NCBI GenBank assembly: GCA_024137785.1
Contig: JAHRHZ010000099.1
Coordinates: 2,216,494-2,280,493 of the forward strand
DNA: 64,000 nucleotides
Direction: 5' to 3'
DNA from: Ginglymostoma cirratum
Lineage: Eukaryota
In this document: positions 2,562-63,000 of the stretch, one piece after another
Layout: every line of letters begins with the position of its first letter
How positions within the stretch are numbered: the first letter of the stretch is position 1
The notes under the pieces: generated by a model
Databases searched by the model: none
The model's input: the letters and a program-made list of their open reading frames with translations, nothing else
Told to the model about the DNA's origin: nothing
Made by a program: the position numbers and the translations under genes

Positions 2562-3499
2562 TAAAGGTTTTGAGATTTGTAGCTCGGCTTGTGGATGAGG
2601 TTGCAGACTTGCTCGCTGAGTCAGTGTGTTTGATTACAGATGTTTCGTCACCCTGCTAGGTAACATCGTCAGTGCACCTCCGGTGAAGCGTTGGCATTCG
2701 GCCCCACTTGTTATTTATATGCCTCGATTTGCTGGGGTAGTCGCTATTACTTCCGGTTCTGCTTTTCAGTGGTTTGTATATCGGGTCCAGTTCAATGTGT
2801 TTGTTGACGGAGTTTCGGTTAGAATGTCAGGCCTCCAAGAATTCCCTGGCATGTCTCTGTTTGGCTCGTGCTATTATGGATGTGCTGACCCAGTCGAATC
2901 TGTGTCCTTCTTTGTCCGCTTGTATTGAGACCAGTGAGAATTGGTCACGTCTCTCGGTGGCTAGTTGGTGTTCATGCATCCTTATTGCCAGTTTTCTTCC
3001 AGTTTGGCCCATGTAAAGTTTCTCACAGTCTTTGTGTGGTATTTTGTACATTACATCAGTTTTATTGGTTGTGAGTATGGGGTCCTTTACGTTTGTCAGT
3101 AGCTGTCGCAGTGTAGTTGTTGGTTTGTGGGCTACCCTGATACCTAGGGGCCTAAGTAGTCTTGTGGCCATTTCTGGCATGTCCCTGATGTATGTTAGGG
3201 TGACTAGTGTGTCAAGCTGTGTTGTGTCTTCTTGCTGTGGTCTGTCACGGAGGCAACGGTGGACTGTGGAAGAAAACTGGCAATGACGATATAAGAGCAC
3301 CAACTATCCTCCAAGAGACAGGTCTAGTTCTCACTGGTCTCAATACACACGGACAAAGAAGGACACGAATTTGATTGGGACAACACATCCATAATAGCAC
3401 AAGCCAAACAGAGACGTGCCAGGGAATTCCTGGAGGCCGGGCATTGTAGCCGGAACTCTGTCAATAAAAGTATTAAATTCGACCCGACATACCAACCAT
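2562..3499 (-). mobile_element. Penelope-like element 3' fragment (GIY-YIG) with an inverted partial copy
   Basis: ORF 2827-3303 has VMYKIP..DC.KLYMGQTGR.L..R..EH...HRFDW...REFLEA. 3265-3499 is an inverted copy of the same region. TTGAAGTA flanks both ends (2554-2561, 3500-3507). Confidence 0.85.
2637..2674 (-). ncRNA. Hammerhead ribozyme-like motif in a Penelope terminus
   Basis: CUGACGA-U-[GUUACCU-AGCA-GGGUGAC, 7-bp stem II]-GAAA-CAUC. The stem III tetramer is ACAU rather than ACGU. Confidence 0.65.
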
Positions 3500-4749
3500 T
3501 TGAAGTAGTTGATCCTCAGATTCCATCTTTCTACACTAGGCCAAATCACATACAACACTGCCTCGCCGCCTGTGCCAAATTCACCAACATTAGAGCCACA
3601 TCTCATGCTGCAGGGCCTATCTCGATGTCAAAGTAATGCCCCCACCTACTCCGGACCTAACCAATGACAAACTCGCTGATCCTCAAGCAGCATTTTTTAC
3701 TGCTAGGCTTACACACTGATGTTGCTTCCGGCTGTAGCAGCGGTTGATTCCAATGCGGACTCAGTGGTCAGCCGGGAAAGCAAAGGTCCTTTCTCCTCCA
3801 CGCTGGTCAACCTCACCTCCGCATTGGGCCCACTCTTCTTCACACTGGTCTTGTGGAGAAGTCTGAACTGGGGTTACTCCACACTGGGACTGTTCGAGGA
3901 GAGCGCTGGGTCCAATCAAAGTCTGCACAGGCCTCTAACTGTCGCTAATGCCATCAGAACTTGGAAGTGAAGGGAAATAGAGAAATTAAAAACTAGGAAA
4001 AACGAAAAAAGAGAAAAGGGGGTCAGAGCAGACGAACTCCAGTTCAGAAGCCCTACTCTACCACCATCTTGAAGGATGTTGAAGGTGGAGTTTAAAGAGA
4101 AGTGCTATGTACAGAACAAAACAACTTCTTTTTTATACGCAGGCGGCACCGGGATCTTTTTGTTTTGGAATTTAGACTTTCATTTTAAATTTGTTGGTAA
4201 GAATGTAGATAATTGCACTTCTTCCGAGATGTTTTGCGACTTTTGCGCAGTGACTCTTTAAAGTGTAAAATCATGTAGGTTTAAACTTATTTAACATCAA
4301 GATTTGTACAGACATTTAAAACGTGCAAGACATTTCACTCAACTGATCAATTCAGCCAATAGGTAATGGTATAGACCACTGAAAACGCATGTACTATTCA
4401 TTGCAAACTCCAGAATCATAAACCTTGTCCCCTGTAAAGTGTGTACAGAATGTAGAACATGCAACATTGCATCAAGTTAGATTTTAATAATGGATAAATT
4501 AACTGTGAATTTGAGCTGTTGCACGGCAGTGGCACCGTCCCTACCTCTGGACGAGAAGACCCAATTCAGAACTCCATAACTCTCAGTACATGTCTGAACG
4601 GGTTGACTAAAAATGGCTGCAAATGTCCCAGGGCCCAAAGCAGTACAGGTATTAGAATTGAATATGGGAAGATCCAATGCATGGAGCTACTTTGGACGAA
4701 TTAAAAATCGACTTTTTCTGAATTAAATGTCTCTAAAAGACAACGAAAT

Positions 4750-6799: not shown

Positions 6800-9400
6800 A
6801 AAACAAAGAACTGCAGATGCTGAGGGTTCAAAACAATAACTTAAATTTCAGGAAAAGCTCGACAGGTCTAGTCGCATCTGTAGAGAGAAAGCAGAGGAAT
6901 TAATTCGAGTCCTGTGACCCTTCTTCAGAAATCATAGCAGCTAGGAAATGTTGGACTATATGCTGATGAGGGAAGAGGGGAGCAATCCACAAAGCAGTCA
7001 TCCACTCTGTGTTTCATATCCCCAGTGTAGAGGAGACCACATGACGTGTAGTGAGTACAGTAAACTAAAATGAGTGAAATGCAGGTAAATCATTGCTTCA
7101 TCTGGAAGGTATGTCATAAGTCCTGGAAGGTCAGGAGGGAGAAGTAAATGCCCAACTGTTCACCTTCTGCAGTTGCATGAGATATTTCCATGGGGATGGG
7201 AGAAGTTATTAAGAGTGGAGGAGGAGTGGAGCAGTGTGCCCTGTAGGAAATATCTGAGCAAAGTACTGACAAAGGACAGGAGGAGCTATGTGCCTGATGG
7301 TGGAACCCCATTGGATGTGTCTGAAATGTCAGCTTCGAATCGTTTGGATGCAGGTGCTGGAACCATTGGAAGCGTGGACCAGAAGAACACTATCAGTTTT
7401 TTAAATAGGAAGAGAAAGGGTCAAGGCAGAAGTGTAATCTAATGGACGTGGCTAATTATCTTGTCAACCACGGTTGTAGCCAATTGTCAGTTGAAGGAAA
7501 TAATAATAGCTACTGAGGCACTCTGGCAAAACGTGACATCATCACAATAGAAGCAGCGGAGACAGAGAAACCAGGAGAGTGGAATAGGGTAATTACAGGA
7601 AGCATGGAGAGATTGTGCAGTGCAGATATGAATTTGATGGGCTGAAAGTGGTAGCCGACCCATTTCCAGAAATGTAAACAGAAATACCGAGGAATGGAGC
7701 GCAGGAATCAAAGATGGAGAAGTTGAAGACAAGAACAGAGTGAAATTTGGAAGAGAAATTGATGATTTCTTTTTCAAAGACAAAAGCAGCTCTGAAGACC
7801 TTATTGATGTACTAAAAAATTGAGTAAGATCCAATTCAGCAATATTCCACATTTTCCACAGAGACCCGTGTGGGTAGGTGTGGCCACACCTTTGATCATA
7901 AGGAAAGGAGATGAGTTAAAGGAGAAGCTGTTCAAAGAAAAGATGAGCTTGACCAGGTGGAGGAGAATGGTGATGGATGACAATTGTTCATGCCTTCTTT
8001 CCAGGAAGAAGCAAAGAACAGTTAGACTCTCCTGATGGGGGAAAGCATGTGTACGGGGATTGCAAGAGCATTTTGAAGAGGACGTGGCTGGTGCCCGCAA
8101 ACTGGAAATTTTGAAACTGATGCAATGGAGATATATGGGAATGTACAAGAGAAGGGGAGAAAAGTCACATCAAGGTAGGAGGAAATACATCCAACCGGGA
8201 GAAAGGCAGAAGCAATGGGACTACGCAGACAGTTCTGTTTGCGATTTTTGGAAAGATGTTAGATGTGGCCTGTATGGGATTGGGAACTGTGAGCTTGGAG
8301 GCTGTTGGAGGGCAGGGATTATGTGTGGGACCAGCAGAAAAGATGAGATTAGTGATTATAGTAACCTAATGTTTGATGGTGGGATCATGGTCCAGGGGTG
8401 ATGGGAGGAGGCATATAAGAGTAGGCACTCAGTCTCCAAAATGTAGCGAGATAACAAGGTGTGGGGCTGGATGAACACAGCCGGCCAAGCAGCATCATAG
8501 GAGCAGGAAAGCTTGACGTTTCGGGCCTGGACCCTTCATCAGGAAAACAAAAAATCAGACAGCCCCACACCTTGTTATCTCGGATTCTCCAGCATCTGCA
8601 GTACCTTTTATCTCCAAAATGTAGCGGTCATTGCACAGACAGCAATGGCACCGCATTTGGCGTAGTCTTATTAACAAAGTCAAGGTTGAATCTGAGAGTA
8701 CAGAGAGTAGTCCATTCAGAGGGAGGGAGAATCGAAGGGGTTGAGGGGGGGAGGTTGGGCAGTGCAGAGAAATCAAGGCGATTGACATCATGTCAACAGC
8801 TCTCAATGAAAAGATTGAGCCAGGTAACATACCACAGGGTGGTTTCCAGGTAGAGGGAGACTGTTGGAGGCCGGTGAAGGAATGATTGAATGGCGATGGA
8901 CATTTGTCCAGTGAAATGGTCATGGAGATCGAGGCAAGGGTTTTCAACGTAACATCGTGCCTGAAATTCATTGATGTGCGTATGCAGAGGGATAAAGCTA
9001 AGTCCATTGCAGAGTACAGAACGTTCAGCATCAGGGAACAGAATATCCGAAGAGACAGTAAATAACCCACAAAATATGGGATGAGGTGAAAAGATAGAGA
9101 CAGGAGAAATGGCAGAGGAAGAAGATTCCAGAGGGGCTTGGCCACCTCGAGATGCTGCAATTCGCTCTCTTTAATGCCTGAAAAGAGGAAACGTTTCTTC
9201 ATGGAATGTCAAACGACCCAGAGAATGAAGTAAAACTGAAAGGCAGGACAGCTCTGAGATTGTGCGAAGCAGTGTTGCTTGACAGAGAGTTGAAGATTGT
9301 GCTTGTGATAATGCATGGCACTGAGTGTGGATCTCTGGAAGCAGTGAGAAGAATAACTTCTGCAAATAACTGCAACAATGACATGAGACCATTGTGAGGT
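6800..9400 (-). mobile_element. Degenerate long Penelope-like retroelement
   Basis: Minus-strand remnants QSPYTCFPHQE (~8030-8063), IKGVATPTHTG (~7863-7896) and CGLLYTGD (~7015-7042) correspond to the SLYT, G.AMG and YIGET motifs. The terminal repeat is at 6800-6930. Confidence 0.7.
8449..8610. mobile_element. Palindromic Penelope-terminus insertion (family A) with hammerhead core
   Basis: Two inverted arms. Direct repeat TCTCCAAAATGTAGCG at 8433-8448 and 8611-8626. Minus-strand CTGATGA-AGGGTCCAGGCCC-GAAACGTC at ~8515-8542. Confidence 0.85.
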
Positions 9401-11562: not shown

Positions 11563-11885
11563 TCAAACACAACTAGATTTCGTGATGCTTTTTTGAAGTG
11601 GGTTTGTTAGAGTCTCGTGTTTAACCCCACAGGAGTAAAGCTCGTGTGAATTCCACTCTGAGGCTGACAGAGTCAGATAACTGCTCATACTGAACGTGTT
11701 GTCCGTCTCCTGCTGGATCCGACTGGTCTCAACTCCGTTCCCTCTGACATTTCCGTCTACCGTCCACTGAATCTCCGCAGCTCCCGGGTTAAAACCGCTC
11801 ACCAAACACACCAAGGTCGCCTTGCTCTTTTCCGTGATTTGAACCGGTGAAGGTGGAAGGAGGGAAAGTGAAGGCGCTCGTGGAT
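11563..11885 (-). CDS. IGL: Ig light chain type II/lambda, constant exon (gene 1)
   Basis: TATTTTTCAG acceptor, phase 1, then (N)PRAPSLSLLPPS...ATLVCLVSGFNP...W...SSYLTL...YSCGVKH...KSSCV*. This is a C1-set domain with the penultimate interchain Cys. Confidence 0.95.
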
Positions 11886-12189
11886 CTGAAAAATAGGAAT
11901 AAGTCGAAGAGGAACCAATCATTAATGTATATATGGCGGAATCAGTGTTTCAGGGTTTTTAAATATTTGAAAATTTCACATCATTCTGCAAAACCATGAA
12001 GAATTTCGCGAACCGGATCCTCATTGCGTTCAACAGTGCAACAATTGCGGCTGACGGTGCTAAATAGCTAACATGAGATGATATTCTCACTTTCTAAATG
12101 CCAAGGCACGCATGAATATTCTGGAGAGGAAATTGAAACAAAGTAAAACACAAGGGCGGTTATATAGCCAGAGTTATTAATAAACAGAG

Positions 12190-12755
12190 GTGAGACCTCT
12201 TTTGGAATATTGTGTCCAGTTCTGGTGGCCCCGGTATGGGAAGGATATTATCAGGCTGGAGAGGTTTCAGAAGAGATCTACCAGGATGTTGCCAATATGC
12301 AAGGTTTGAGTTTTAAAGAAAGATTGTACAGGCTGATACTTTTTTAACTGGAGCGTAGGAGGTTGAGAGGTGACGTAATAGAAGTTTATAAAATAATGAG
12401 GGGTATAGATCGAGTTGATGGCAGTTGTCTTTTCCCGGAGACGGGGTATTTCGAGAACACGGAGCACATTTTTAAGGTGAGAGGAGACAGACTTAAAAAA
12501 GACATAAGAGGCAAACTTTTTACACAGAGCGTGGTGCGCGTGTGGAATGAACTTCCTGAAGAAGTGGTGGATGTGGGTACAACTACAACATTTAAAAGAC
12601 ATTTGGATTGATACATGACTAGGGAAGGTTTGGAGGGACGTGGGCCAGGAGCAGGCAGATGGAACTAGTTTAGTTTGGGATTATATTCAGCATGGACTAG
12701 TTGGTCCGAAGAGTCTGTTTCCGTGCTGCATTATCTATTGCTCTTATGATTATAT
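12190..12755 (+). mobile_element. CR1 LINE 3' fragment in the gene 1 J-C intron
   Basis: LEYCVQFW-like coding, RGDVIEVYKIMRGIDRVD...WNELP...FKRHLD, and a CR1 3' UTR with tail. Confidence 0.88.
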
Positions 12756-13061
12756 GACCCTGTTCAAATAACAGTAAGATGCAACAAACTAGAATTCGGA
12801 ATAAACTAACGCTGACCGAAAAAAGAAACAGCTGCAACATTTAAAACGTTTAAAGTTGCATTTCTGTACAGCCCAGTTTGCTGCTTTTCTCGCTTCTAAG
12901 AGATTCTCCACATGGTTCCCAATCCTCGCTTCCCTGTAATTTAATGTGCAAACCTTCCGAAGACTGTTCTTGCGTCAACAAAATACGCTGTTTGTGAACT
13001 TTATCGGGATCACAGTGTCACACTTTCTCACTACACAGAAAACCGCCACCTATAAATAGCC

Positions 13062-13241
13062 ACAAAAACAGAAGTTGCTAGAAAAGTTCAGCAGGTCTGG
13101 CAAAATCTGTGAAGAGCGAACGTTTCGGGTCCGGTGAACCTGCCCGGATTTCTCTTCACAAATGGTACCAAACCTGCTGAGCTTTTCCAGCAACTTCTGT
13201 TTTTGTTTCTGATTTACAGCATGGCAATTCTTTTGGATTTT
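13062..13241. mobile_element. Palindromic Penelope-terminus insertion (family B) in the gene 1 J-C intron
   Basis: Inverted arms ACAAAAACAGAAGTTGCT...AGCAACTTCTGTTTTTGT. 14-bp TSD ACCTATAAATAGCC at 13048-13061 and 13242-13255. Confidence 0.85.
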
Positions 13242-14882
13242 ACCTATAAATAGCCTTTGTTTGGGAACCAACTATATCTGCGCCGAGCCTTGCTAAACGC
13301 GAAACAAGTTCCTCAAAAAAAGACGCATTTGATCACCGCGCTCAGATGTCCTTAAGTCTTAGTCGGCGCAAGTTCGTTTCCGTATCTCTCTCGTAAAGTA
13401 AGAAACGTTCCGACGACAGTGACCATGAACTATCGCCCAGTGCGATCGAATGTGTTGACAGCGAAATGCCAGGGCCCCCTGTCTCGGCCTCAAATTTTAC
13501 ACGCTTCAGTTGACAACGCCAATCACTTGGTACATTTGATCACGTAATGAAAAGCAGTGAAGAAAATGTGAAAATGTCACTACTTTGTTCATGTCTAAAA
13601 GTAGAGATTGACCTGCTTCATTTTTTTTTGTGACATTGTGATGTTGGGGCCAACTCTTCCGGACCGCCTTGGCCGTCCCAGATCAGTCCCTTGTCAGTTT
13701 AACAAACTTCTTCCGTCGTTAACGTTCCGTCCGGGAACTTGACAGTTGAATTGGGTGATTTTCTGTGTAGTCTAACAAGTATCACAAACAGCTAAAAGCA
13801 TAATCTCCTTGCAACAGCTGGAGGTTATTTGAACATTATGACAATATAAGTGTGGAATATCTGAAATCTCCTATACATGGGGCAGGGCTTGCCTTCATTT
13901 TATATAATCGTCCAAGTAAGTGTTTTGCCGCGAGCTAATTAACCGTGGTGTTTTTAAAATTTGGCGCTTTTAATTTTAGGAAACAGTTGAAAATATGATA
14001 GAATATTTTCTGTTTCCTATCACAACTTGGTGCATTTCACGTCATGTTGCCGAAAACAGAAGATGAAATAGCAACAACGAATATGTACTTTTACTGTTCC
14101 TACGTTGATCACAGAAACAGCGGGAAAATGCAATTGAAGGAATATACAATATGTTCGAAAGGCTTTTCCGACTCAGTATAGCGAAATATCAGATTGAGGT
14201 TCTTTCACTGGGTTTGGAGGCGAGGCTGAATTGCAGCAAGTTGCCCCACTATCTATCCTTAACCAAGATTGGGGGTTCAATCTCCCAAGATCGAAATGGA
14301 ATGAAGTATTTAACTGTTCGTTTTAGCCAGAGGAACGGGACTATCGGAATTCAGGTTTTGTCAGTCTGAAAAACCCAGCGGCCGAAGAATTCTAGTACTC
14401 AGAAGCAGGAGCTTCTCCCCCTCCTTTCCCTTTTAAAGACTACCTTGATTCTGCTCGCTCCATTCTCAGAAATAAGGCACTGCAGTGAGAACCCTTCCTG
14501 GGTAAATAAACATCACGTCCGGTCCTTCCATCCCACTCCAAATGAAATTAAGTTTACCTCCCCGGGCCCAGCAGCTGCCCGATCTCTGAAAATGGCCGCA
14601 TTCCATCAGAATGTGGAACGTGACGGTAAAGTTTCTTCACCTTGACTTTCTCCGAAAGCGTTTTAGGTATTTTAAATCAACCTATTTAATTATCTTGTAA
14701 GATGTCTCTGAATCAAATGGAGCCTTCTAATCTAGCATTAGGGACACCACCACTGCCCGACAACAGCCGCACTTGGACCGAACGAAAGCCAGGGCATACT
14801 GTTATGACCTGGGAAACGATTCGACCTACTTTCTGTTTGCAGCCCAGATCATCCACTTCAAAATAGCCGCATTTCTGCCTGA

Positions 14883-15093
14883 GAGATATTAGGAGCTGCA
14901 GATGCTGGAGAATCTGAGATAACAAGGTGTAGAGCTGGGTGAACACAGCAGGCCAAGCAGCATCAGAGGAGCAGGAAGGCTGAAGCTTCGGGCCTAGACC
15001 CTTCTTCTAAAGAAGGATCGAGGCCCGAAGTATCAGCCTTCCTGATGCTGCTTGGCCTGCTGTGTTCATCCAGCTCTACACCTTGTTATCTCA
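14883..15093. mobile_element. Palindromic Penelope-terminus insertion (family A) in the gene 1 J-C intron
   Basis: Head-to-head arms centred ~15007. 13-bp TSD CATTTCTGCCTGA at 14870-14882 and 15094-15106. Both hammerhead cores are degenerate. Confidence 0.88.
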
Positions 15094-15261
15094 CATTTCT
15101 GCCTGACCCATCTTTCCATATCATATAATGCAGATTCACTAGTTCACTGGAAATATATTTAGGAACAATGGGCCAGACTTTATCTAGTTCAATCTACCTA
15201 ACCAATGATTTTCAACTATTTTTGAGACTTCCACAGTAATACTGCGTATCATTTTACTTAC

Positions 15262-15603
15262 TGCCCAGGTTCAGCTTGGTTCCTTTCCCGAATGTAACTA
15301 TTCCGCTTTTTGCTACAGCGCAATAATAATCGGCGGCGTCCTCCGACTGTACGTTTGTGATGGTTAAATGCATCTTGTTACTTGACGAGTCCACGGACCC
15401 GGTAAATCGATCTGGAATTCCCGAAGCTGTACCTGTGCTTTCGTACCAAACAAAGACCGGGGCACTTTTGGGTTTCTGCCAGTACCAGCTCGTGTAGTAG
15501 CTGCCGATGCTGCCTCCGGACATGGTACAGGTAATCGTCACAGTTTTGCCCGGGGATGTTGAGATGGAACCTGGCTGAGTCAGAACAGGATCCCCATTTG
15601 CAC
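15262..15603 (-). CDS. IGL: Ig light chain type II/lambda, germline-joined VJ exon (gene 1)
   Basis: TTTCACCAG acceptor, then (S)ANGDPVLTQPGSISTSPGKTVTITC...WYWQKP...DYYC-AVAKSGIVT-FGKGTKLNLG, then a GTAAG donor at 15261. Both Cys, the Trp and the FGxG motif are in one open frame with no RSS between V and J. DPVLTQPGS and WYWQKP are as I recall them for shark type II/lambda chains. Confidence 0.95.
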
Positions 15604-15738
15604 CTGGTGAAATAGTGAAGATATTGACAAGTTACATTTTGCAGCTTTGAATATTGTTTGTAGTTCCCCCCGCTTAACCACGACGCAAAGAGAACAATGT
15701 AAACAGAAGCGATCGTGCGAATGAATGCCCGTACTTAC

Positions 15739-22402: not shown

Positions 22403-22533
22403 AGAGATGGTTGGAACTGCGGATGCTAGAGAATCTGAGATAACAATGTGTGCAGCTGGATGAACACAGCAGGCCAAGCGGCATCAGAGGAGCAGGAAGG
22501 CTGACGTTTCGGGCCTAGACCCTTCTTCAGAAA
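22403..22533 (-). mobile_element. Penelope terminus (family A) with intact hammerhead core
   Basis: Minus strand TTTCTGAAGA-AGGGTCTAGGCCC-GAAACGTC-AGCC, followed by the family A 3' sequence. Confidence 0.82.
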
Positions 22534-27963: not shown

Positions 27964-29152
27964 CTGAAAAACGGGAATCAGTCGAAGAATTTTCAATTAT
28001 CAATTAGCGCATATGTCGGAATCCTTGTTTCACATTTTTCAAATATTTGAAAATTATATATCGCTCTAGGAAAGGTTTGAGAAATTTAGTTGGACAGAGC
28101 CACACTGGGGTCAACTTTGCCACCATTGCGGCTTCCGGTACAAAAAAAAAGCGATGACCTGAAAGGGTGCTCCGACTTTCTACCTGCTGAGGCACACATT
28201 CATATTCTGAAGAGGAAACTGAAGTGTGGTAAATAGCCCAAATATTTGAAAGAAAGTTAGCAAGTAATAACTTAGAATTTAGTATAAATTAATGCCGACA
28301 GGAAAATAAGCTTCAATATTTAAGTCAAAAATGCTTCACGGCAGTGTTACAAATTGGCCAAACAGTTGCATTTCTGCATAACGCATTTTACTACTTTGTT
28401 CGCCTCCACGAAACTTCTCTCAGTGTTCCCAAACATGCTTCACTGCAATTTATGGTGTAAACCGTGAAAACACTGTTCTACCATATTCAAAATACACTAT
28501 TTGGGAACGTGATTTGGATCACAATATCACACCTTGTAACTAAACAGAAACCCTGTAACCAGCTACATCTCTATTGTGCAATCGTATCATAATGAGGGGG
28601 GGGGGCCCCAAAATCCTGCAATGGAAACCACCTGACAAATATTCATCCCTCACCCAAAATCGCTTTAGACAGCTTAAGTGGTCATTCGTATTTGTGGAGC
28701 CTTGCTAAGGGAGAAACTCGAACCTCCGTCGCTAAGGTGGCTTTCCTTCCAAAAAGGGTGCACTGAACCAACTGTGAAGTGCGCCCAGATGTCCCGAGGT
28801 CGTGGTCGGCGCCACACTAGTGTAAGTTCGTTCCTATTTCTCTATTTTGACAAACAAACGCTCCCATGATAGTAACCACGAAATATCACAGAGTGGAACA
28901 GGATGTTTTGAGACCGAACTGTCAGAGTTTCATGTCGCTGCCTCATGCTTTAGAATCTTCTGCTGAGAAAGCCAATCACTTGGTAGACTTGATAACTTGT
29001 TGTAAAGCAGTGATTAAAATATGAAAAGATTATATTTTTGCGGGAATAAAATTAATGAGTAACCCCGCTGCAAATTGTTTGTGACATTGGTGTGCACTGC
29101 CAGCTGTTCCAGAGCGCCCCCTAGCAGTTCAATAAAGTAGTGGCGTTCTGAT

Positions 29153-29248
29153 GATAACAAGGTGTGGAGCTGGACGAACACAGCAGGCCAAGCAGCATCA
29201 TAGGAGCCGGAGAGCTTAACGTTTCGGGCCTAGACCCTTCTTCAGAAA
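29153..29248 (-). mobile_element. Penelope terminus (family A) with intact hammerhead core
   Basis: TTT-CTGAAGA-AGGGTCTAGGCCC-GAAACGTT-AAG. Absent at the paralogous position ~13715. Confidence 0.82.
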
Positions 29249-40406: not shown

Positions 40407-40826
40407 ATCTCCCCTCCCCCTACGGTATCCCAAAACCAGCCCAGCTCGTCCCCGCCTCTCTAACCTGTCTTTCCTCCCACCTATCCCCTCCTCCCACCTC
40501 AAGCCCCACCCCCATCTCCTACCTACTAACCTCATCCCGCCCCCTTGACCTGTCCGTCCTCCCTGGACTGACCTATCTCCTCCCTAACTCGCCATCTACA
40601 CTCACCTTTACTGGCTCCATCCCCGCCTCTTTGACCAGTCTGTCTCCTCTCCACCTATCTTCTCCTCTACCCATCTTCTATCCGCCTCCCCCTCTCTCCC
40701 TATTTATTTCAGAACCCCCTTCCCATCCCCCATTTCTGAAGAAGTCTGGGCCCGAAACATCAGCCTTCCTGCTCCTCTGATGCTGCTTGGCCTGCTGTGT
40801 TCATCCAGCTCTACACCTTGTTATCT
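40407..40826 (+). mobile_element. Penelope family A 3' region (C/T-rich tract plus terminus)
   Basis: A ~330-bp pyrimidine-rich tract runs into CTGAAGAAG..GGGCCCGAAACATC and the family A end ...CACCTTGTTATCT. This links the short elements to a longer parent. Confidence 0.78.
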
Positions 40827-41170
40827 AACATCGATATCCTAGTCTTGGGTTTAGCAGATTTAAGTTCATGTTGACAATGCAAATTTTAAAAGTATTGTGA
40901 ATAGTGACAACGTGATGGAGGAGTTGGCACGTGGCAGATCCAATTTAATTCAGAAAGTAATGCAGTTGTAGATCTTGGTAGGAAAACGAGGCGTGAATGT
41001 ATTGAAAAAAGCGTGTACAATATATTTCTACAGAAAGACAGGGTCCTGGGGGCAGACGTGCGCAAATACTTGAAGGCGGTAGGGCAGGCTGAGAACATAG
41101 TTAAAACTCAATACAGTTCCTGGGCTTTATAAATAGTCCGAAAGTATAAAACCGAGGAGTTAATAGTGTA

Positions 41171-41741
41171 GAGAGATAAAAGGTACTGCAGATGCTGGAG
41201 AATCCGAGATAACAAGCATGGGGCTGGATGAACACAGCAGGTCAAGCAGCATCATAGGAGCAGGCTCCTNNNNNNNNNNNNNNNNNNNNNNNNNNNNNNN
41301 NNNNNNNNNNNNNNNNNNNNNNNNNNNNNNNNNNNNNNNNNNNNNNNNNNNNNNNNNNNNNNNNNNNNNNNNNNNNNNNNNNNNNNNNNNNNNNNNNNNN
41401 NNNNNNNNNNNNNNNNNNNNNNNNNNNNNNNNNNNNNNNNNNNNNNNNNNNNNNNNNNNNNNNNNNNNNNNNNNNNNNNNNNNNNNNNNNNNNNNNNNNN
41501 NNNNNNNNNNNNNNNNNNNNNNNNNNNNNNNNNNNNNNNNNNNNNNNNNNNNNNNNNNNNNNNNNNNNNNNNNNNNNNNNNNNNNNNNNNNNNNNNNNNN
41601 NNNNNNNNNNNNNNNNNNNNNNNNNNNNNNNNNNNNNNNNNNNNNNNNNNNNNNNNNNNNNNNNNNNNNCATCATAGGAGCCTGCTCCTATGATGCTGCT
41701 TGACCTGCTGTGTTCATCCAGCCCCATGCTTGTTATCTCGG
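41171..41741. mobile_element. Young palindromic family A insertion spanning the assembly gap
   Basis: Perfect inverted arms on either side of the gap. 12-bp TSD GTTAATAGTGTA at 41159-41170 and 41742-41753. It sits inside a degenerate CR1 fragment. Confidence 0.85.
41270..41669. other. Assembly gap (400 N)
   Basis: Run of N. Confidence 1.
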
Positions 41742-42432
41742 GTTAATAGTGTAACTTCACAAAGTACTGGTCTGACCTTAACTGTTTATTGCCTTCAATT
41801 ATGAGTCACACGTTGGAGCGTGGTTGTGGAATCTCTGGACGTGATTCAGAAAAGAGTTTTGAGAATTGGTGTTGCGATAGGAGACTTCAGTTCCTGGATA
41901 GATTGGAGAAGGCGGGTTTATTCGCCTCAGAGAGGCGAAGACAGAGAGCAGATTTGGTGAAGGAGCTTGTCTAGAGGCCCCGCTACTTCTGGATTTGACA
42001 TTCACAACTCTTTAGCAATGAATAAACAGTTCTACAAGAGTCCCTTTTCAACATTCCAGTTGTACTAAATCCAAACAGGACAAACTAGTCAATAAGCACC
42101 AAGATAATCGAATTGCTGCACTCTCGGTGCCCGGGAATTGAGGCAGTTTGAGACCCACAATTTTTAAAATGAAGCAGTGGAGAGAGATAGGGCTGGAGAT
42201 ACACAAATAAAAACTAAACTTGTGAATTCTCAAGTGGCAGCGCAACAAAAAAGAAACAACTTGCCAGAATGATAATATGAAGGGTCTAGATTTCTAACTA
42301 CTAATTTTCATGCCTTTTATCATATCATTAACGCAGTGCTGCTTAATGCAAAGTACGGTGTAAACTGACATCGAGCCATTTGCTGATGCGAGTGGTTTAC
42401 GTGTATTTTTTGTAAATACCTGTGCTGGCAGG

Positions 42433-45035: not shown

Positions 45036-45158
45036 ATGCAATTGGTTACAAGAACCTGGATACTGCTCAGTTGGCCAATCGACACTTTCGGGAGGACAAT
45101 ATATTTGCCTACCTAATAAGCCGGTGACATTTAAGTTGCCCCGGCCTTTGACATAAAA
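45036..45158 (+). promoter_or_regulatory. Putative promoter of gene 2
   Basis: Octamer-like ATGCAATT (45036-45043) and ATTTGCCT (45103-45110), each 7/8. ATTGG at 45041, CCAAT at 45075, and TATA-like CATAAAA at 45152-45158, ~60 nt before the ATG. Confidence 0.45.
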
Positions 45159-45214: not shown

Positions 45215-45260
45215 ATGGCCGCTGCTCTTGCTCTGGTCTTGCTTATGTTGGGTCTGACCT
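45215..45260 (+). CDS. Divergent lambda-like Ig light chain, leader exon (gene 2)
   Basis: ACAATGG start context, MAAALALVLLMLGLT + 1 nt, then a GTAAGT donor at 45261. Confidence 0.9.
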
Positions 45261-45431
45261 GTAAGTGTCATCAAAATATGTGTAATTTCTTTAGCATTAT
45301 GAACAATTGTTTTAAAAAAATCAAGCAAGCACCTAATCCGGAGTGTGTCTTGATCTGAACGTAATGTCGTCGTTCTGTGCTCATTTTTATTAGTTGATTA
45401 TTAATCATGAAATGTTTTATCTGTTTTACAG

Positions 45432-45776
45432 ACACAAGCGCGGACGTCCGCTTGGTCCAACCGGCTTCCGAGTCCACAACACCTGGAGAAACTGTTCGCC
45501 TGACCTGTACAGTCCACGGAATCAGCCTTTCAAAAAAGTATGTTTTTTGGTACCAGCAGAAGCGAGACAGTGCCCCAAGATTTATTCTGAAGGGGACCGA
45601 TAAAAGAGGTCAAGGTATCTCGGACAGATTTACCGGCCTGGAAGATGAATCAACCAACGTGGGATATTTGACTATCACTAATGTGCAATCGGAGGATGCT
45701 GGTGACTATTACTGTTATTCAAGTGATGAAGGCGACATAGGCTACTTCGGTAGCGGAACCAGACTGATCGTGCCGG
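45432..45776 (+). CDS. Divergent lambda-like Ig light chain, germline-joined VJ exon (gene 2)
   Basis: TGTTTTACAG acceptor, then (Y)TSADVRLVQPASESTTPGETVRLTC...WYQQK...DYYC-YSSDEGDIGY-FGSGTRLIVP, then a GTAAGT donor at 45777. Open frame, all V hallmarks, no intervening RSS. Confidence 0.93.
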
Positions 45777-49574: not shown

Positions 49575-50231
49575 ATAAGAGTGTGAAGCTACCGTGATTT
49601 GAAAACGCAGCCTACGATTGCGCCACAGGCTCTCCCCTCCTTACCAATATGTGGATTTTGAGAACTAGTTCCTTGAAATGATCAGAAACTTTTTTTTAAC
49701 CCAAGTCAATGTATCTGCGCCACGAGAGCAATTTGCAGACTCTCCAGCCTTCTCCAGCAAGAATTTAAATGACGGAATATTTCTTTTTCCGTTTGCAGTT
49801 TAATAAAATTCTGCTTTGTACGTTTACCTTGCACGTGCTGTCGGGTATATTTGCATCCAAGTGAAATTTCATAGAAGTATAAACCCATGGCAGGTACAGG
49901 TCTCTCTGCAGTTCAGAATCAGACACATTAATTGTTTAAATATGAGGGTTTGACAGTTTATAACTCTGATGCACCACTGTGCTTTAGTGAACTCAAAGCA
50001 GTGTTTAACCTTTCGCTTCTAGGTCGTCAGCCAGCCAAGCCCAAAGTGTCGCTCCTTCCCCCCAGCACAGAGCAGATTGCAGGAGCCAACGAGGCGACGC
50101 TGATGTGTGTGGTCACTCATTTTTACCCGGAGTCGGTGACGCTGGTGTGGAGTGTGGACGGCAAAGTCAGACAGACCGGCGTCCAGACAACCTCAACCAT
50201 ACAGGACTCTGACCAGACATACAGCTTAAGC

Positions 50232-50361
50232 AGAGATAAAAGGTACTGCAGATGCTGGAGAATCCGAGATAACAAGCATGGGGCTGGATGAACACAGCAG
50301 GTCAAGCAGCATCATAGGAGCAGGAAAACTTGACGTTTCGGGCCTAAACCCTTCATCAGAA
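50232..50361 (-). mobile_element. Young Penelope terminus (family A) inserted in the C exon of gene 2
   Basis: 130 bp between the AGC and AGT codons. 50232-50324 is identical to 41172-41264. Only a 2-bp AG ambiguity at the junction. Confidence 0.92.
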
Positions 50362-50364
50362 AGT
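50326..50364 (-). ncRNA. Minimal type I hammerhead ribozyme motif
   Basis: UUU-CUGAUGA-A-[GGGU-UUAG-GCCC]-GAAA-CGUC-AAG: intact core, palindromic ACGU stem III, 3-bp stem I. Confidence 0.7.
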
Positions 50365-50699
50365 TACCTCACTCTGCCAGCTTCCGAGTGGAGCTCACAC
50401 GAGCTTTACTCCTGCGAAGTAAAACACCAGACCCTCAGCTCCACACTTGAGCAAAGCATCAGGCGATCAAGCTGCATGTGATGAAGAAAGAAATATATTA
50501 TTAAAAAATGTTGTCTTTTCTGTACTCCTGTTGAAAATAACTTGTCGCTGTTTCTTAATTTGAATCTCATCCAATTTTTACACTGTTGGTCTCTTTTTGA
50601 AAAGCAAGGGTGAGTGACCGTCTCATCTTTAAGCAAAGTAACGCCGTTGCATTTGCGTGTGCTGTATTAATAATGTCTTATTTTTAGCCTGGCTTAAAT

Positions 50700-50705
50700 A
50701 ATAAA
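50700..50705 (+). terminator. Putative polyadenylation signal of gene 2
   Basis: AATAAA ~220 nt after the stop. An ATTAAA also lies at 50500-50505. Confidence 0.5.
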
Positions 50706-60002: not shown

Positions 60003-63000
60003 TCAGTGGTGCCACCACACAATAACGTTTGGTAAAAACTTCCTGCAGAATCTGCACAATCCCAAAAATTGCAACTCCATCTCGGAGGATGTTCTTAAAA
60101 ATTCTTCCACAGCCTTTGTGTTCACATTCCTTGGTGTCATCCATTCATGTCTGATGCTGCATCCAAAGAACGTCACTTCCGTCTTTGAGAATTCTGACTT
60201 TGCCAAATTTGTGACCAACTTTGCCTTCTGTATTCTCTTGAAGAACTCTGCCAAATACGCCATGTGTTCTGTCCACGAGTGGACAAAGATCACTAAGTCA
60301 TCTAGATAGATGGCACAAATAGTCAATCCAGCCACAACTCTGTTCATAAGTGTTCGAAATGTGGCTGGTGCATATTTCATTCCAAAGGGCATAACTTTAA
60401 ATTGATACAGCCCATTTGGTCTGCCCAAAGATACTTGCCAGCAACTGTGACGCAAGTCCAACTTTTATGTTGGTGGCTTGTACAAATTTTTCCCCATACA
60501 GTCCTCCCACCTTGGAAGTGGGTAGGAGTCCTATTTAGTCACAGCATTGACCTTCCAATAATCTGCACAGAATCACTGAGTAACATGTTTGGGAACCAAC
60601 ACAACCAGCAAACTCCATTTGCTTTATCTCAGTTCAATGATGTCTTCTTGAAGTATCACTTCCACTTTCTTTTGTGGATGTGCTGCTTTGAGAGGATTAA
60701 GCATGTAGGGATGTTGATTTATTGGAACAGCACTTCCTACATCCACTTTGTTACTATAGTATTAATCCTCCCCGTTTTATTTCTACATACATACTAAATG
60801 CTGCAACAGGTCTTTCCATTCAGGTCTCTGTTCCTGAGAGAGATAGCTTACTACCTTATCCCGTTGTTTTTTTTTAAGAAAAGGACTTCGTCAGATTCAA
60901 TTTATTCTGAGACACATCAAAATCTGAATCATCTGGATTTGATTCCTCACTCAGTGTCAGTGACTAATACCTGCTTGTCCGATTCCCTTTCCTCATCATA
61001 GTAAGGTTTCAGCATGTTCCCATGACAAACCCAATAATTTTTTATTCCCTATCTGGCATTTTTACTCCACCTGACTTAACGCCTCAATCTGGTAGGTACC
61101 AATACACCTTGCTTTGAAGGGATCTCCTACTACTGGTAATAACACCAATACTTTATCCCCATGGGCAAACATGCAAATTTTAGATTTCTTATCCACTGCT
61201 TGCTTCAGTAGCTACTGTACCACCTTCAAATGTTGTCTAGCTAATTCACCTACTCTGTTTAATCTTTCTCTCACCTCAGATTCATAATCAAACAGAGATC
61301 TCTGACTTCAGACCTATCAATCAATTTTTCTTTGTGTCAGAGTATCAATTCAAATGGAGTAAACTGAGTTGACTCATTTTGAGAATGTCTAATAGCAAAC
61401 AATATAAAAGGGATACCTTTTATCCCAATCACTTGCATAACCCGGGCAATAAGCCCTCAGTATGTTCTTCAGAGTCTGATGCTGCTTTTCCAATGCTCCC
61501 TGGGATTCAGGATGGTATACACTTGATTGAATGTGTTGGATGCCTAACCTGTCCATGACCTCCTTAAATAGTTTGGAAGTAAAATTAGAGTCTTGGTCTG
61601 ACTGAATCTCCCTGGGTAGTCCATAATGGGTAACGAAAGCAAGCCATTCCTCCACAATCTTCTTTGCCTTGACATTCCACAATGGAATTGCTGCCGCGAA
61701 TCTGGTAGACACAACCATTATGCTTAAATAATGGTTCCCACTTTGATTTGGGAGGAATCTACACAATCAAAACCTGCGTGAAAGATTGTTCAAATGTGGG
61801 AATCAGCATTAAAGGCACTAGTTTTATTACTGCTTGTGGCTTTCCTACCATACGAAAAGTATGACAGGTCCAGCAAAACTCAACCACATCTTTATGTAAT
61901 CCAGGCCAATAGAAATGTTTTTTTTTCTTAGCCTCAGTGTTCCTCACTGAGATGTCCTCCTACAGGAAATTTGTGTGCTACCCACAATACTTCCTATCTG
62001 GTGAACTTCCTCCCCTGCACTCGCCTGTCAAGGTCTCCACTTCTGCCTTAAGAATTTATCCTTAAATGTAACAACATTCTGGAATACATTCTGATTCCTT
62101 TTGAGTAGGCTTTATGGTATAAACCTTTTATTGTCACATCTTTTTGTTGTAATTCCGTTAGTCTTTCAGAACTAATTATCTCTGCCTGATCCTCTACCTG
62201 CTTCATTTTCTACTTTGCAATTTCATCAAACAAGGTATCAGCTAACTGGACCTCAACGCCATCTTCCTCTTTGGTTTTCCATTCATGCTTTAACTTATCA
62301 CTGTGGGTCATTGTCAACACAGTGTGGAAATATTCCAGAGCATATTGTTTTTAACTCCTCACTTCCATGGTTTTCTTTGGACTTCACCACAACGGGTATC
62401 ACTCCCACCTTTGATCTGGCTAGGTCATTTTCAAGAACAAGCTGTGTTCCTGGATTAGACACTCTTTCAATCACTCTCACTGTCACTTTCCCAGTCTTGA
62501 TTGGACTTTCTAGCCTTATTTTACATGAGGGAACATTAAATCTCTGTCCATTTATTCCACAGATTATCAAACAGGTAAATTTTCAGAAGGAGTGCAAATA
62601 ATTTCACATCTTACTATTGGAGACTGGCCAGCTCCCGTATCTCAATACTTCAATTTCTTTACCTTCTGCCCCATTCTTCCTGAGTAAAACCTTCCCCACA
62701 GAGGTGAAGTCTTTGAAGAGATTGGGCACAATCTTACTATCCAGCCAGTGGCTAGACTGTGGACTTCCCTACAGGTCCTCAACTTCTTTTGGGATTTCCT
62801 TCACTACCCACTTGTTTGGTGTGTTTTACCACATCCTTTCCCCCCAGTGCCTCTCTTAATCCACCAGCACTGTGACTTTGTGTGCTCCCGTTGAATACAG
62901 TGGAAACACTTCAAGCCTTTCACCCCTTTTATCACCCTCTTGAGTTTCTTTCTTCACAGATGTAAACTGCTCCAGGATGACATACTTTTTGTTTTTCATT

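What the first reader, a model, noticed from the sequence alone, without database searches (positions are those of the whole stretch)
50232..50361. Very recent ribozyme-bearing Penelope insertion disrupts an otherwise intact Ig C exon
Seen: removing 50232-50361 restores ...TAC AGC TTA AGC AGT TAC CTC... (YSLSSYL), matching FSMSSYL in gene 1. The 130-bp insert shifts the frame and adds a stop at 50289, which removes the second domain Cys and the interchain Cys. No other lesion is visible in L, VJ, C or the splice sites. The first 93 nt are identical to the copy at 41172-41264, including variants (AACAAGCATGGGG, AGGTCAAGC) absent from the other copies here. Inference: an active subfamily and gene disruption caught early, possibly polymorphic.
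Basis: partly seen in the sequence, partly recalled or inferred. Interest (0 to 1): 0.7.

Follow-up and report, generated by a model that had tools for sequence, protein, structure and literature searches.

The report
Retroelement breaks ancient shark antibody gene
A 130-base scrap of a very common jumping gene sits in, and cuts short, the only copy found in this shark of an antibody light-chain gene that other sharks and a chimaera still carry; the gene is still transcribed, and the damage is likely shared by most or all of the species rather than a rare new allele.

Summary
The insertion is real. Removing 130 bp restores a 239-aa light chain; with it the frame stops at 219 aa. It is the ribozyme-to-tail end of a Neptune-type Penelope-like element, antisense to the Ig mRNA. 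Four runs from four studies of this species carry the filled junctions, three on spliced or exon-bounded contigs, and none shows the empty allele. Two DNA runs of a related shark show the clean empty site. So it is lineage-specific and probably fixed, not polymorphic. 'Very recent' is unproven: a diagnostic 37-mer has 53,164 exact copies in the genome, the subfamily is about 1% diverged (roughly 9-16 My), and identity to the 41172 copy is expected. It is the only copy found of a germline-joined lambda-type branch, separate from classical shark lambda in V and C trees and kept from Callorhinchus to Heptranchias, Mustelus and carpet sharks. Decay is common at this locus: 5 of 10 other clusters are broken.

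The parts
50232..50361 (-). Insert: terminal 130 nt (pseudo-LTR end plus about 34-nt tail) of a Neptune-type Penelope-like element, antisense to the Ig gene; boundaries may slide +2 (AG at both ends)
   Evidence: empty site in related shark
50332..50359 (-). Minimal hammerhead motif (CUGAUGA core, 4-bp stem II, GAAAC-GUC); predicted cut between 50332 and 50331; 5' arm of stem I lies at the truncation point
   Evidence: pattern scan and fold; no Rfam hammerhead hit; activity untested
50232..50265 (-). Optional tail between the two preferred element ends
   Evidence: 46 of 100 sampled copies begin at insert position 1-4 and 47 of 100 at 34-40
50289..50291 (+). Premature TGA inside the insert, in the last exon
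50023..50481 (+). C exon of gene 2 (coding part, interrupted by the insert); native stop 50479-50481; transcript contigs run to about 50710 past AATAAA at 50700
45432..45776 (+). Germline-joined VJ exon of gene 2, open
   Evidence: spliced in RNA contigs
45215..45260 (+). Leader exon of gene 2
   Evidence: splice joint 45260-45432
41159..41753 (.). Independent fold-back insertion of the same subfamily, with a 12-nt target duplication (41159-41170, 41742-41753) and a 400-N gap in the middle
11566..15631 (-). Gene 1: classical shark lambda cluster (joined VJ and C both open), the comparison gene

Best explanation
A 5'-truncated end of a Neptune-type Penelope-like retroelement sits in the C exon of a single-copy, germline-joined lambda-type light-chain gene and stops its reading frame early, so this still-transcribed gene is likely a dead allele that has likely become fixed or nearly fixed in this species. 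Shown: the insert, the stop, spliced transcripts that carry the junctions, the empty site in a related shark, intact orthologs, and a parent family with RT, Cys linker and GIY-YIG. Inferred: the element protein nicked the exon and reverse-transcribed from the outer of its two start sites, using at most 2-3 nt of microhomology, and stopped at the front of the hammerhead, where many copies of this family stop. Inferred: the 219-aa product (V, half a C domain and a 19-aa tail) cannot fold its C domain or bond to a heavy chain and is discarded; the mRNA persists because the stop is in the last exon and the ribozyme is on the other strand. Inferred: the allele spread by drift under weak selection some time in the last 0-20 My (95% bound 21-37 My), as part of the ordinary turnover of this locus.
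For: Frame and stop. Filled junction contigs with 0 mismatches in X1 and X2 (both sides), X6 (left) and X4 (right), four studies. Splice joints L-V and J-C in X1, X2 and one read each in X21. Clean 130-nt skip in DNA runs X10 and X17 of organism B, 239 and 142 letters on the shorter side. Single copy in the assembly by DNA, V protein, C protein and junction 20-mer. Full-length orthologs in five genera at 72-91% V identity, also Chiloscyllium and Callorhinchus. Parent frames with RVT_1 and GIY-YIG beside element ends 99-100% identical to the insert. Two start classes and 44 of 100 ends at positions 119-134. 5 of 10 other lambda clusters on the contig carry stops, frameshifts or a truncated V.
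Against: Junction contigs reach only 24-27 letters into the insert, under the 31 the tool asks for to count as bridging; I read this as the limit of extension into a 50,000-copy repeat. Contigs drop rare variants, the joint table was cut (106 rows not shown), X4 and X6 are shallow (10-13x) and each shows one side, and the four samples need not be four unrelated animals; eight filled chromosomes would still allow an empty allele at up to 31%. No long target duplication, while 11 of 25 simple copies have one of 7 nt or more. No protein data. A gene conserved since the chimaera split and then lost sits awkwardly with 'weak selection'.
Confidence: 0.72

Rival explanations
1. The insertion is recent and still segregating; the assembled animal and the sampled runs happen to carry the filled allele.
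For: The insert equals the subfamily consensus and the family has open RT-EN frames. Few animals sampled; contigs drop rare variants.
Against: No skip joint in X4 or X6; X1, X2 and X6 contigs pass the left junction and X1, X2 and X4 the right one without a break; runs span 2013-2023 and four studies. An intact allele should be at least as well expressed as a broken one (inference).
Confidence: 0.13
2. The disrupted gene still works: either a cryptic intron (donor GT at 50243, acceptor AG at 50362-50363) removes most of the insert in frame and leaves three extra residues, or the truncated chain acts as a V-only or surrogate-like chain using the two new Cys.
For: Leader, VJ and splice sites are intact and the gene is transcribed in several studies. 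A GT and an in-frame AG exist at those places (arithmetic by hand).
Against: No such joint was listed, and contigs run through both sites unbroken. The donor is a poor consensus match and a better AG lies 4 nt upstream, out of frame. The new Cys lie 6 and 8 residues after YSLS instead of 19, and strands F and G are gone.
Confidence: 0.07
3. The gene was already decaying in the ancestor shared with the whale shark, and the insertion only finished a gene that selection had released.
For: The Rhincodon model has an odd leader, AEYYC for GDYYC, FCSGT for FGSGT and a 2-residue gap at J-C. Six of the seven listed coding differences between this C exon and organism B change the residue.
Against: The Rhincodon oddities may be assembly or annotation errors. 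Stegostoma is intact and 91% identical. Apart from the insert, this gene shows no stop, frameshift or splice damage. Not all differences were listed (9 of 13 for X10), so the ratio is not a dN/dS.
Confidence: 0.06
4. Assembly artefact, or local gene conversion from the 41172 copy.
For: 93-nt identity 9 kb away; short-read gaps at fold-back copies.
Against: Independent runs carry the junctions; tens of thousands of equally identical copies exist; the exon had no prior element to convert (empty in organism B).
Confidence: 0.02

Closest known systems
EN+ Penelope-like elements, Neptune/Nematis type (PMC8557442, PMC3846280; passages read)
   Same: RT then CX2-5CxxC linker then GIY-YIG in one frame; pseudo-LTR ends, inverted truncated copies, optional 30-40 nt tail, hammerhead in the pseudo-LTR; insertions with or without target duplication.
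   Different: This copy is only 130 nt, single-armed, has at most a 2-nt duplication and lies in a coding exon. No RT tree was built to separate Neptune from Nematis.
Poseidon element PAc of the green anole (PMC11167929; abstract, main text and start of methods read)
   Same: Two nearby start sites for reverse transcription that define the tail; hammerhead near the pseudo-LTR end.
   Different: Poseidon lacks the Cys linker seen here. The in vitro mechanism is borrowed by analogy and was not tested for this family.
Cartilaginous-fish lambda (type II / NS3) light chains (PMC4279169, PMC5192425; passages read)
   Same: V-J-C cluster, germline-joined VJ, same CDR1 and CDR2 lengths as gene 1, same contig as the classical lambda clusters.
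   Different: V about 50% and C about 46-55% identical to classical lambda; separate starred clades in V and C trees that each include a chimaera sequence; one or two copies per species; conserved CDR1 (SLSK[KR]YV) from Callorhinchus to carpet sharks.
Ray-finned fish lambda-2 (PMC5985310; passages read)
   Same: Low copy number (1-2 genes); lambda-like but distinct from classical lambda. That paper did not find it in cartilaginous fish.
   Different: CDR1 here is 8 residues by my count against 5-7 for lambda-2. No verified lambda-2 sequence was in my trees.

Membership tests
EN+ Penelope-like element | RT and C-terminal GIY-YIG endonuclease in one frame in the parent | tested here: met
   L122 and L123 hit RVT_1 (one above and one just below the Pfam cut-off) and GIY-YIG (both above); their ends match the insert at 99-100%. 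L122 has an N gap and L123 is 5'-truncated, so no complete copy was seen.
EN+ Penelope-like element | Pseudo-LTR ends in direct or inverted arrangement, optional 30-40 nt tail | tested here: met
   starts at 1-4 (46 of 100) and 34-40 (47 of 100)
EN+ Penelope-like element | Hammerhead motif in the pseudo-LTR | tested here: met
   Core and stem II on the minus strand, 50359-50332. Rfam models do not hit; PLE hammerheads are described as minimal (PMC6155905).
EN+ Penelope-like element | Self-cleavage of the hammerhead | not testable with these tools
   Stem I is weak here and in the parent; the anole element needs its protein to cleave (PMC11167929).
EN+ Penelope-like element | Target-site duplication | tested here: inconclusive
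   Family: 7 nt or more in 11 of 25 simple copies, control 1 of 25. This copy: only AG, duplication or microhomology.
Neptune/Nematis clades | CX2-5CxxC linker between RT and EN | tested here: met
   C-X4-C-X2-C upstream of the GIY-YIG in the parent frames; definition from PMC8557442
Neptune/Nematis clades | RT phylogeny | not tested
   no reference PLE RTs in hand
Penelope/Poseidon clade | No Cys-rich linker | tested here: not met
   linker present
Shark lambda (type II / NS3) | Germline-joined VJ in a V-J-C cluster | tested here: met
Shark lambda (type II / NS3) | V and C group with described type II chains | tested here: not met
   Gene 2 V clade 99/97, classical lambda V clade 99/97; C clade with sister branch 99/97, classical C clade 99/95. 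The base of both trees is unresolved, so a wider lambda group is not excluded; no AU test was run.
Lambda-2 isotype | CDR1 of 5-7 residues | tested here: not met
   8 by my IMGT-style count; range from PMC5985310
Lambda-2 isotype | CDR2 of 2-3 residues; 1-2 genes per species | tested here: met
   3 residues (also 3 in gene 1, so not discriminating); one copy here, two in Chiloscyllium and Hemiscyllium
Lambda-2 isotype | Groups with gar, bichir and teleost lambda-2 in trees | not tested
   no sequence verified as lambda-2 among the proteins returned
Polymorphic insertion | Empty allele within the species | tested here: not met
   not seen in X1, X2, X4, X6 or the assembly; X21 and X22 had too few reads; rare alleles not excluded

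The most novel reading that the evidence does not exclude
Gene 2 and its sister branch are an undescribed light-chain sub-isotype of cartilaginous fish, as old as the chimaera-shark split, with an inherited and conserved binding surface (an innate-like antibody chain), and this species is a natural knockout of it made by a single Penelope-like insertion, with the gene still switched on in B cells.
Probability: 0.3. Interest if true: 0.68.

Novelty: new member of a known kind. Interest (0 to 1): 0.42.

Why it matters
A transposon breaking a gene is ordinary, and so is decay among shark light-chain clusters. The value lies in the target. A pre-joined light chain whose CDR1 and framework 3 are kept from a chimaera to carpet sharks suggests a fixed ligand or a fixed heavy-chain partner. 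A species that lacks it, beside relatives that keep it, gives a ready comparison. A pre-joined gene that is transcribed but cannot make a full chain also allows a direct test of how shark B cells exclude light-chain genes: do cells that switch it on go on to express another chain? The site is also a clean presence/absence marker for carpet-shark phylogeny.

Tried and rejected
DNA search of the genome with the insert returned nothing because very common words are skipped; a pattern search was used instead. Rfam gave no hit at gathering level in the window and only three chance-level, non-ribozyme hits around the insert. No listed holder was on record as RNA. Raw RNA runs X21 (about 1x on the gene) and X22 (none) could not test the junction. 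Depth differences left and right of the insert go both ways among runs and were not used. A single-sequence AlphaFold model of the truncated C half had mean pLDDT 49, with the last 32 residues under 50: too poor to use. The ESM Atlas returned only generic lambda and kappa C clusters. My first reading of the parent as Poseidon was dropped after finding the Cys linker. Local copying from 41172 was rejected. The spliced translations printed were one base out of frame and are replaced. In one search two C rows were badly cut and a kappa chain was mislabelled lambda; the C tree was rebuilt, whose bootstrap had not fully settled. Gene 1's V found no named protein above 89%, so the species was not determined. 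Two papers recalled as relevant (a 2017 study of nurse-shark light-chain exclusion and a 2021 review of cartilaginous-fish Igs) were not held; I saw nothing of them.

Full report
Observation. The 130 bases at 50232-50361 interrupt the C exon of an Ig light-chain gene. Without them the spliced gene (L 45215-45260, joined VJ 45432-45776, C from 50023; both introns GT..AG) reads as a 239-aa chain ending RRSSCM. With them it stops at TGA 50289 after 219 aa, the last 19 from the insert. The cut can slide by two bases because AG stands at both ends. The first 93 nt equal 41172-41264. That copy is one arm of a separate fold-back insertion with a 12-nt target duplication and an assembly gap in its middle.

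What the insert is. A 37-mer that holds both diagnostic variants occurs 53,164 times exactly in the 4.36-Gb assembly, with 0 for the reversed control, and 72,512 times with up to one mismatch. I examined the first 100 listed matches, all on contigs C1 and C2 and selected for the exact 37-mer. Of these, 46 begin at insert positions 1-4 and 47 at 34-40, and 44 end at 119-134, some at gaps or fold-back points; 13 of the 24 that cover all 130 nt are identical to the insert. The two start classes match the optional 30-40 nt tail of Penelope-like elements, which in the anole element reflects two start sites of reverse transcription (PMC11167929, main text read). Longer copies join this end to an RT frame. 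Among 22 loci chosen for high score or long frames, L122, L123, L125 and L129 read open from before the RT through the endonuclease; L122 and L123 hit RVT_1 and GIY-YIG, and their ends match the insert at 99-100%. No complete, gap-free copy was seen. A C-X4-C-X2-C linker lies before the endonuclease, which marks Neptune or Nematis rather than Penelope/Poseidon (PMC8557442, passages). Earlier notes of this scan had named Neptune for this genome's short insertions, and that led me to check.

The ribozyme. A minimal hammerhead core lies on the minus strand at 50359-50332. Rfam does not detect it; PLE hammerheads are described as minimal (PMC6155905, passages). It is antisense to the Ig mRNA, its stem I is weak and begins at the truncation point, and the anole homolog needs protein to cleave. 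It marks the insert's origin and has no evident role in this gene.

Junction. Eleven of 25 simple copies have a target duplication of 7 nt or more, against 1 of 25 controls. This one has only AG. Insertions without duplication, joined by microhomology, are described for PLEs (PMC3846280, passages).

Real, lineage-specific, probably fixed. I laid 8 of the 24 runs listed. In organism A, whose contigs match the exons with no differences, X1 and X2 carry both filled junctions, X6 the left and X4 the right; these are four samples from four studies dated 2013-2023. X1 and X2 show the L-V and J-C splices; X6's contig leaves the stretch at the C acceptor. The contigs reach 24-27 letters into the insert, short of the tool's 31-letter bridging rule, which I read as the limit of extension into a huge repeat. 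No 130-nt skip is listed for them (0 for X4 and X6; the table for X1 and X2 was cut, but their contigs pass the junctions unbroken). X21 and X22 had too few reads. Contigs drop rare variants, and eight filled chromosomes allow an empty allele up to 31%. In organism B, DNA runs X10 and X17 from two studies show the exact skip, with 13 differences in 511 letters for X10. The listed differences translate to a C domain identical to the Rhincodon typus protein over 105 residues, so the empty site comes from another genus and bounds the age only loosely.

Age. The ratio of one-mismatch to exact matches gives 0.98% per base, and the sampled copies give 1.0% outside the seed. With whale-zebra shark dS of 0.061-0.111 over about 50 My (PMC13100897, passage), that is 9-16 My on average. 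Copying errors, sub-lineages and truncated ends would inflate this. Zero differences in 130 nt has probability 0.28 at that divergence, and the 95% bound is 2.3%, or 21-37 My. The insertion may be young, but identity does not show it.

The gene. It is the only copy found in the assembly: next best hits are 70% in DNA, 53% for V and 55% for C, and the junction 20-mer is unique. These searches score only the best candidates and the assembly has gaps. Full-length orthologs with an uninterrupted C domain exist in Stegostoma (V 91%), Rhincodon (88%), Hemiscyllium (85%), Mustelus (75%) and Heptranchias (72%), with two copies each in Chiloscyllium and Hemiscyllium. Callorhinchus has one, with entries named immunoglobulin light chain, 56% in VJ and the same SLSKKYV and LEDESTNVG motifs. 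In the V tree these form a clade (99/97) apart from classical shark lambda (99/97). In the C tree they join a sister branch (99/97) apart from classical lambda (99/95). Both sides include a chimaera, so the split predates chimaeras and sharks. The bases of both trees are unresolved. All cartilaginous-fish lambda genes are described as germline-joined (PMC4279169, PMC5192425, passages), and gene 2 lies among them, so I file it as a divergent lambda-type branch. Lambda-2, not found in cartilaginous fish by PMC5985310, has a shorter CDR1, and I had no verified lambda-2 to test against. The window's species was not determined; it is a carpet shark nearest Rhincodon and Stegostoma among named hits.

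Context against surprise. Five of the 10 other lambda-type clusters on this contig carry stops, frameshifts or a truncated V. The whale-shark model of this gene also looks damaged or mis-assembled, so selection may have eased before the insertion.

Mechanism. Shown: insertion, stop, continued spliced transcription, empty ortholog, parent family. Inferred from PLE biology: nick, reverse transcription from the outer start site, early termination at the hammerhead front, repair with little or no duplication. Inferred from Ig structure (my own knowledge): loss of half of strand E, strands F and G and both native Cys prevents C-domain folding and heavy-chain bonding; a last-exon stop would escape nonsense-mediated decay. 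A cryptic in-frame splice (GT 50243 to AG 50362-50363) is possible on paper but was not seen.

Novelty. Ten paper searches listed nothing on this insertion or this branch, but I read only passages of eight papers, no supplements, and two recalled papers on shark light chains were not held, so the branch may be described elsewhere. The scan has many earlier notes on short Penelope insertions in this genome, one on what looks like the sister branch in another genome, and none near this place or on this V. Verdict: an ordinary kind of event, well supported, in an unusually old and conserved target. New member of a known kind; interest 0.42.

Noticed in passing
L156 (G000:C99:1330500-1336500); L037, L133: An open germline-joined gene with long CDR2 and very short CDR3, whose C region is sister to gene 2's branch and groups with Cetorhinus and Carcharodon proteins. 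A broken paralog lies in L155.
   Followed up: partly
L159, L153 (G000:C99:1.28-1.31 Mb): A further divergent V family joined to a classical lambda C region, with orthologs in Cetorhinus and Chiloscyllium; suggests V and C regions of different ages in one cluster.
   Followed up: partly
G000:C99, 1.28-2.27 Mb: Of 11 lambda-type V genes found, 4 have open V and C, 1 has an open V with no C found in the 9 kb fetched behind it, and 6 including gene 2 are broken.
   Followed up: yes
P0004 (Rhincodon typus model): The whale-shark ortholog model has an odd leader, an altered J motif and a gap at the J-C joint; it may be decaying or badly assembled.
   Followed up: no
window 50361-50365 and L012: The five letters after the insert's last TCAGA are the same AAGTT that follows the predicted hammerhead cut, and fold-back copy L012 turns at that same word; possibly a hint on how the 5' junction forms, possibly chance.
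   Followed up: no
window 45103-45110 and 49849-49856: The promoter of gene 2 has ATTTGCCT, one letter off the octamer (consensus recalled), while a perfect octamer lies in the J-C intron 170 bp before the C exon.
   Followed up: no
window 8447-8614, 14882-15097, 22403-22533, 29147-29248, 40732-40826: Older copies of related Penelope-like ends, two of them fold-backs, 83-95% alike to the insert.
   Followed up: partly
window 2620-3627: An inverted pair (2770-3001 / 3498-3267) with another hammerhead-like motif at 2672-2639 on the minus strand.
   Followed up: no
window 60006-60464 (-): Fragment of an LTR-retrotransposon-like reverse transcriptase frame (YLDD motif).
   Followed up: no
P0205: A shark lambda J-C protein filed as a hypothetical protein of Aeromonas veronii on a 652-bp contig: likely contamination in that record.
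   Followed up: no
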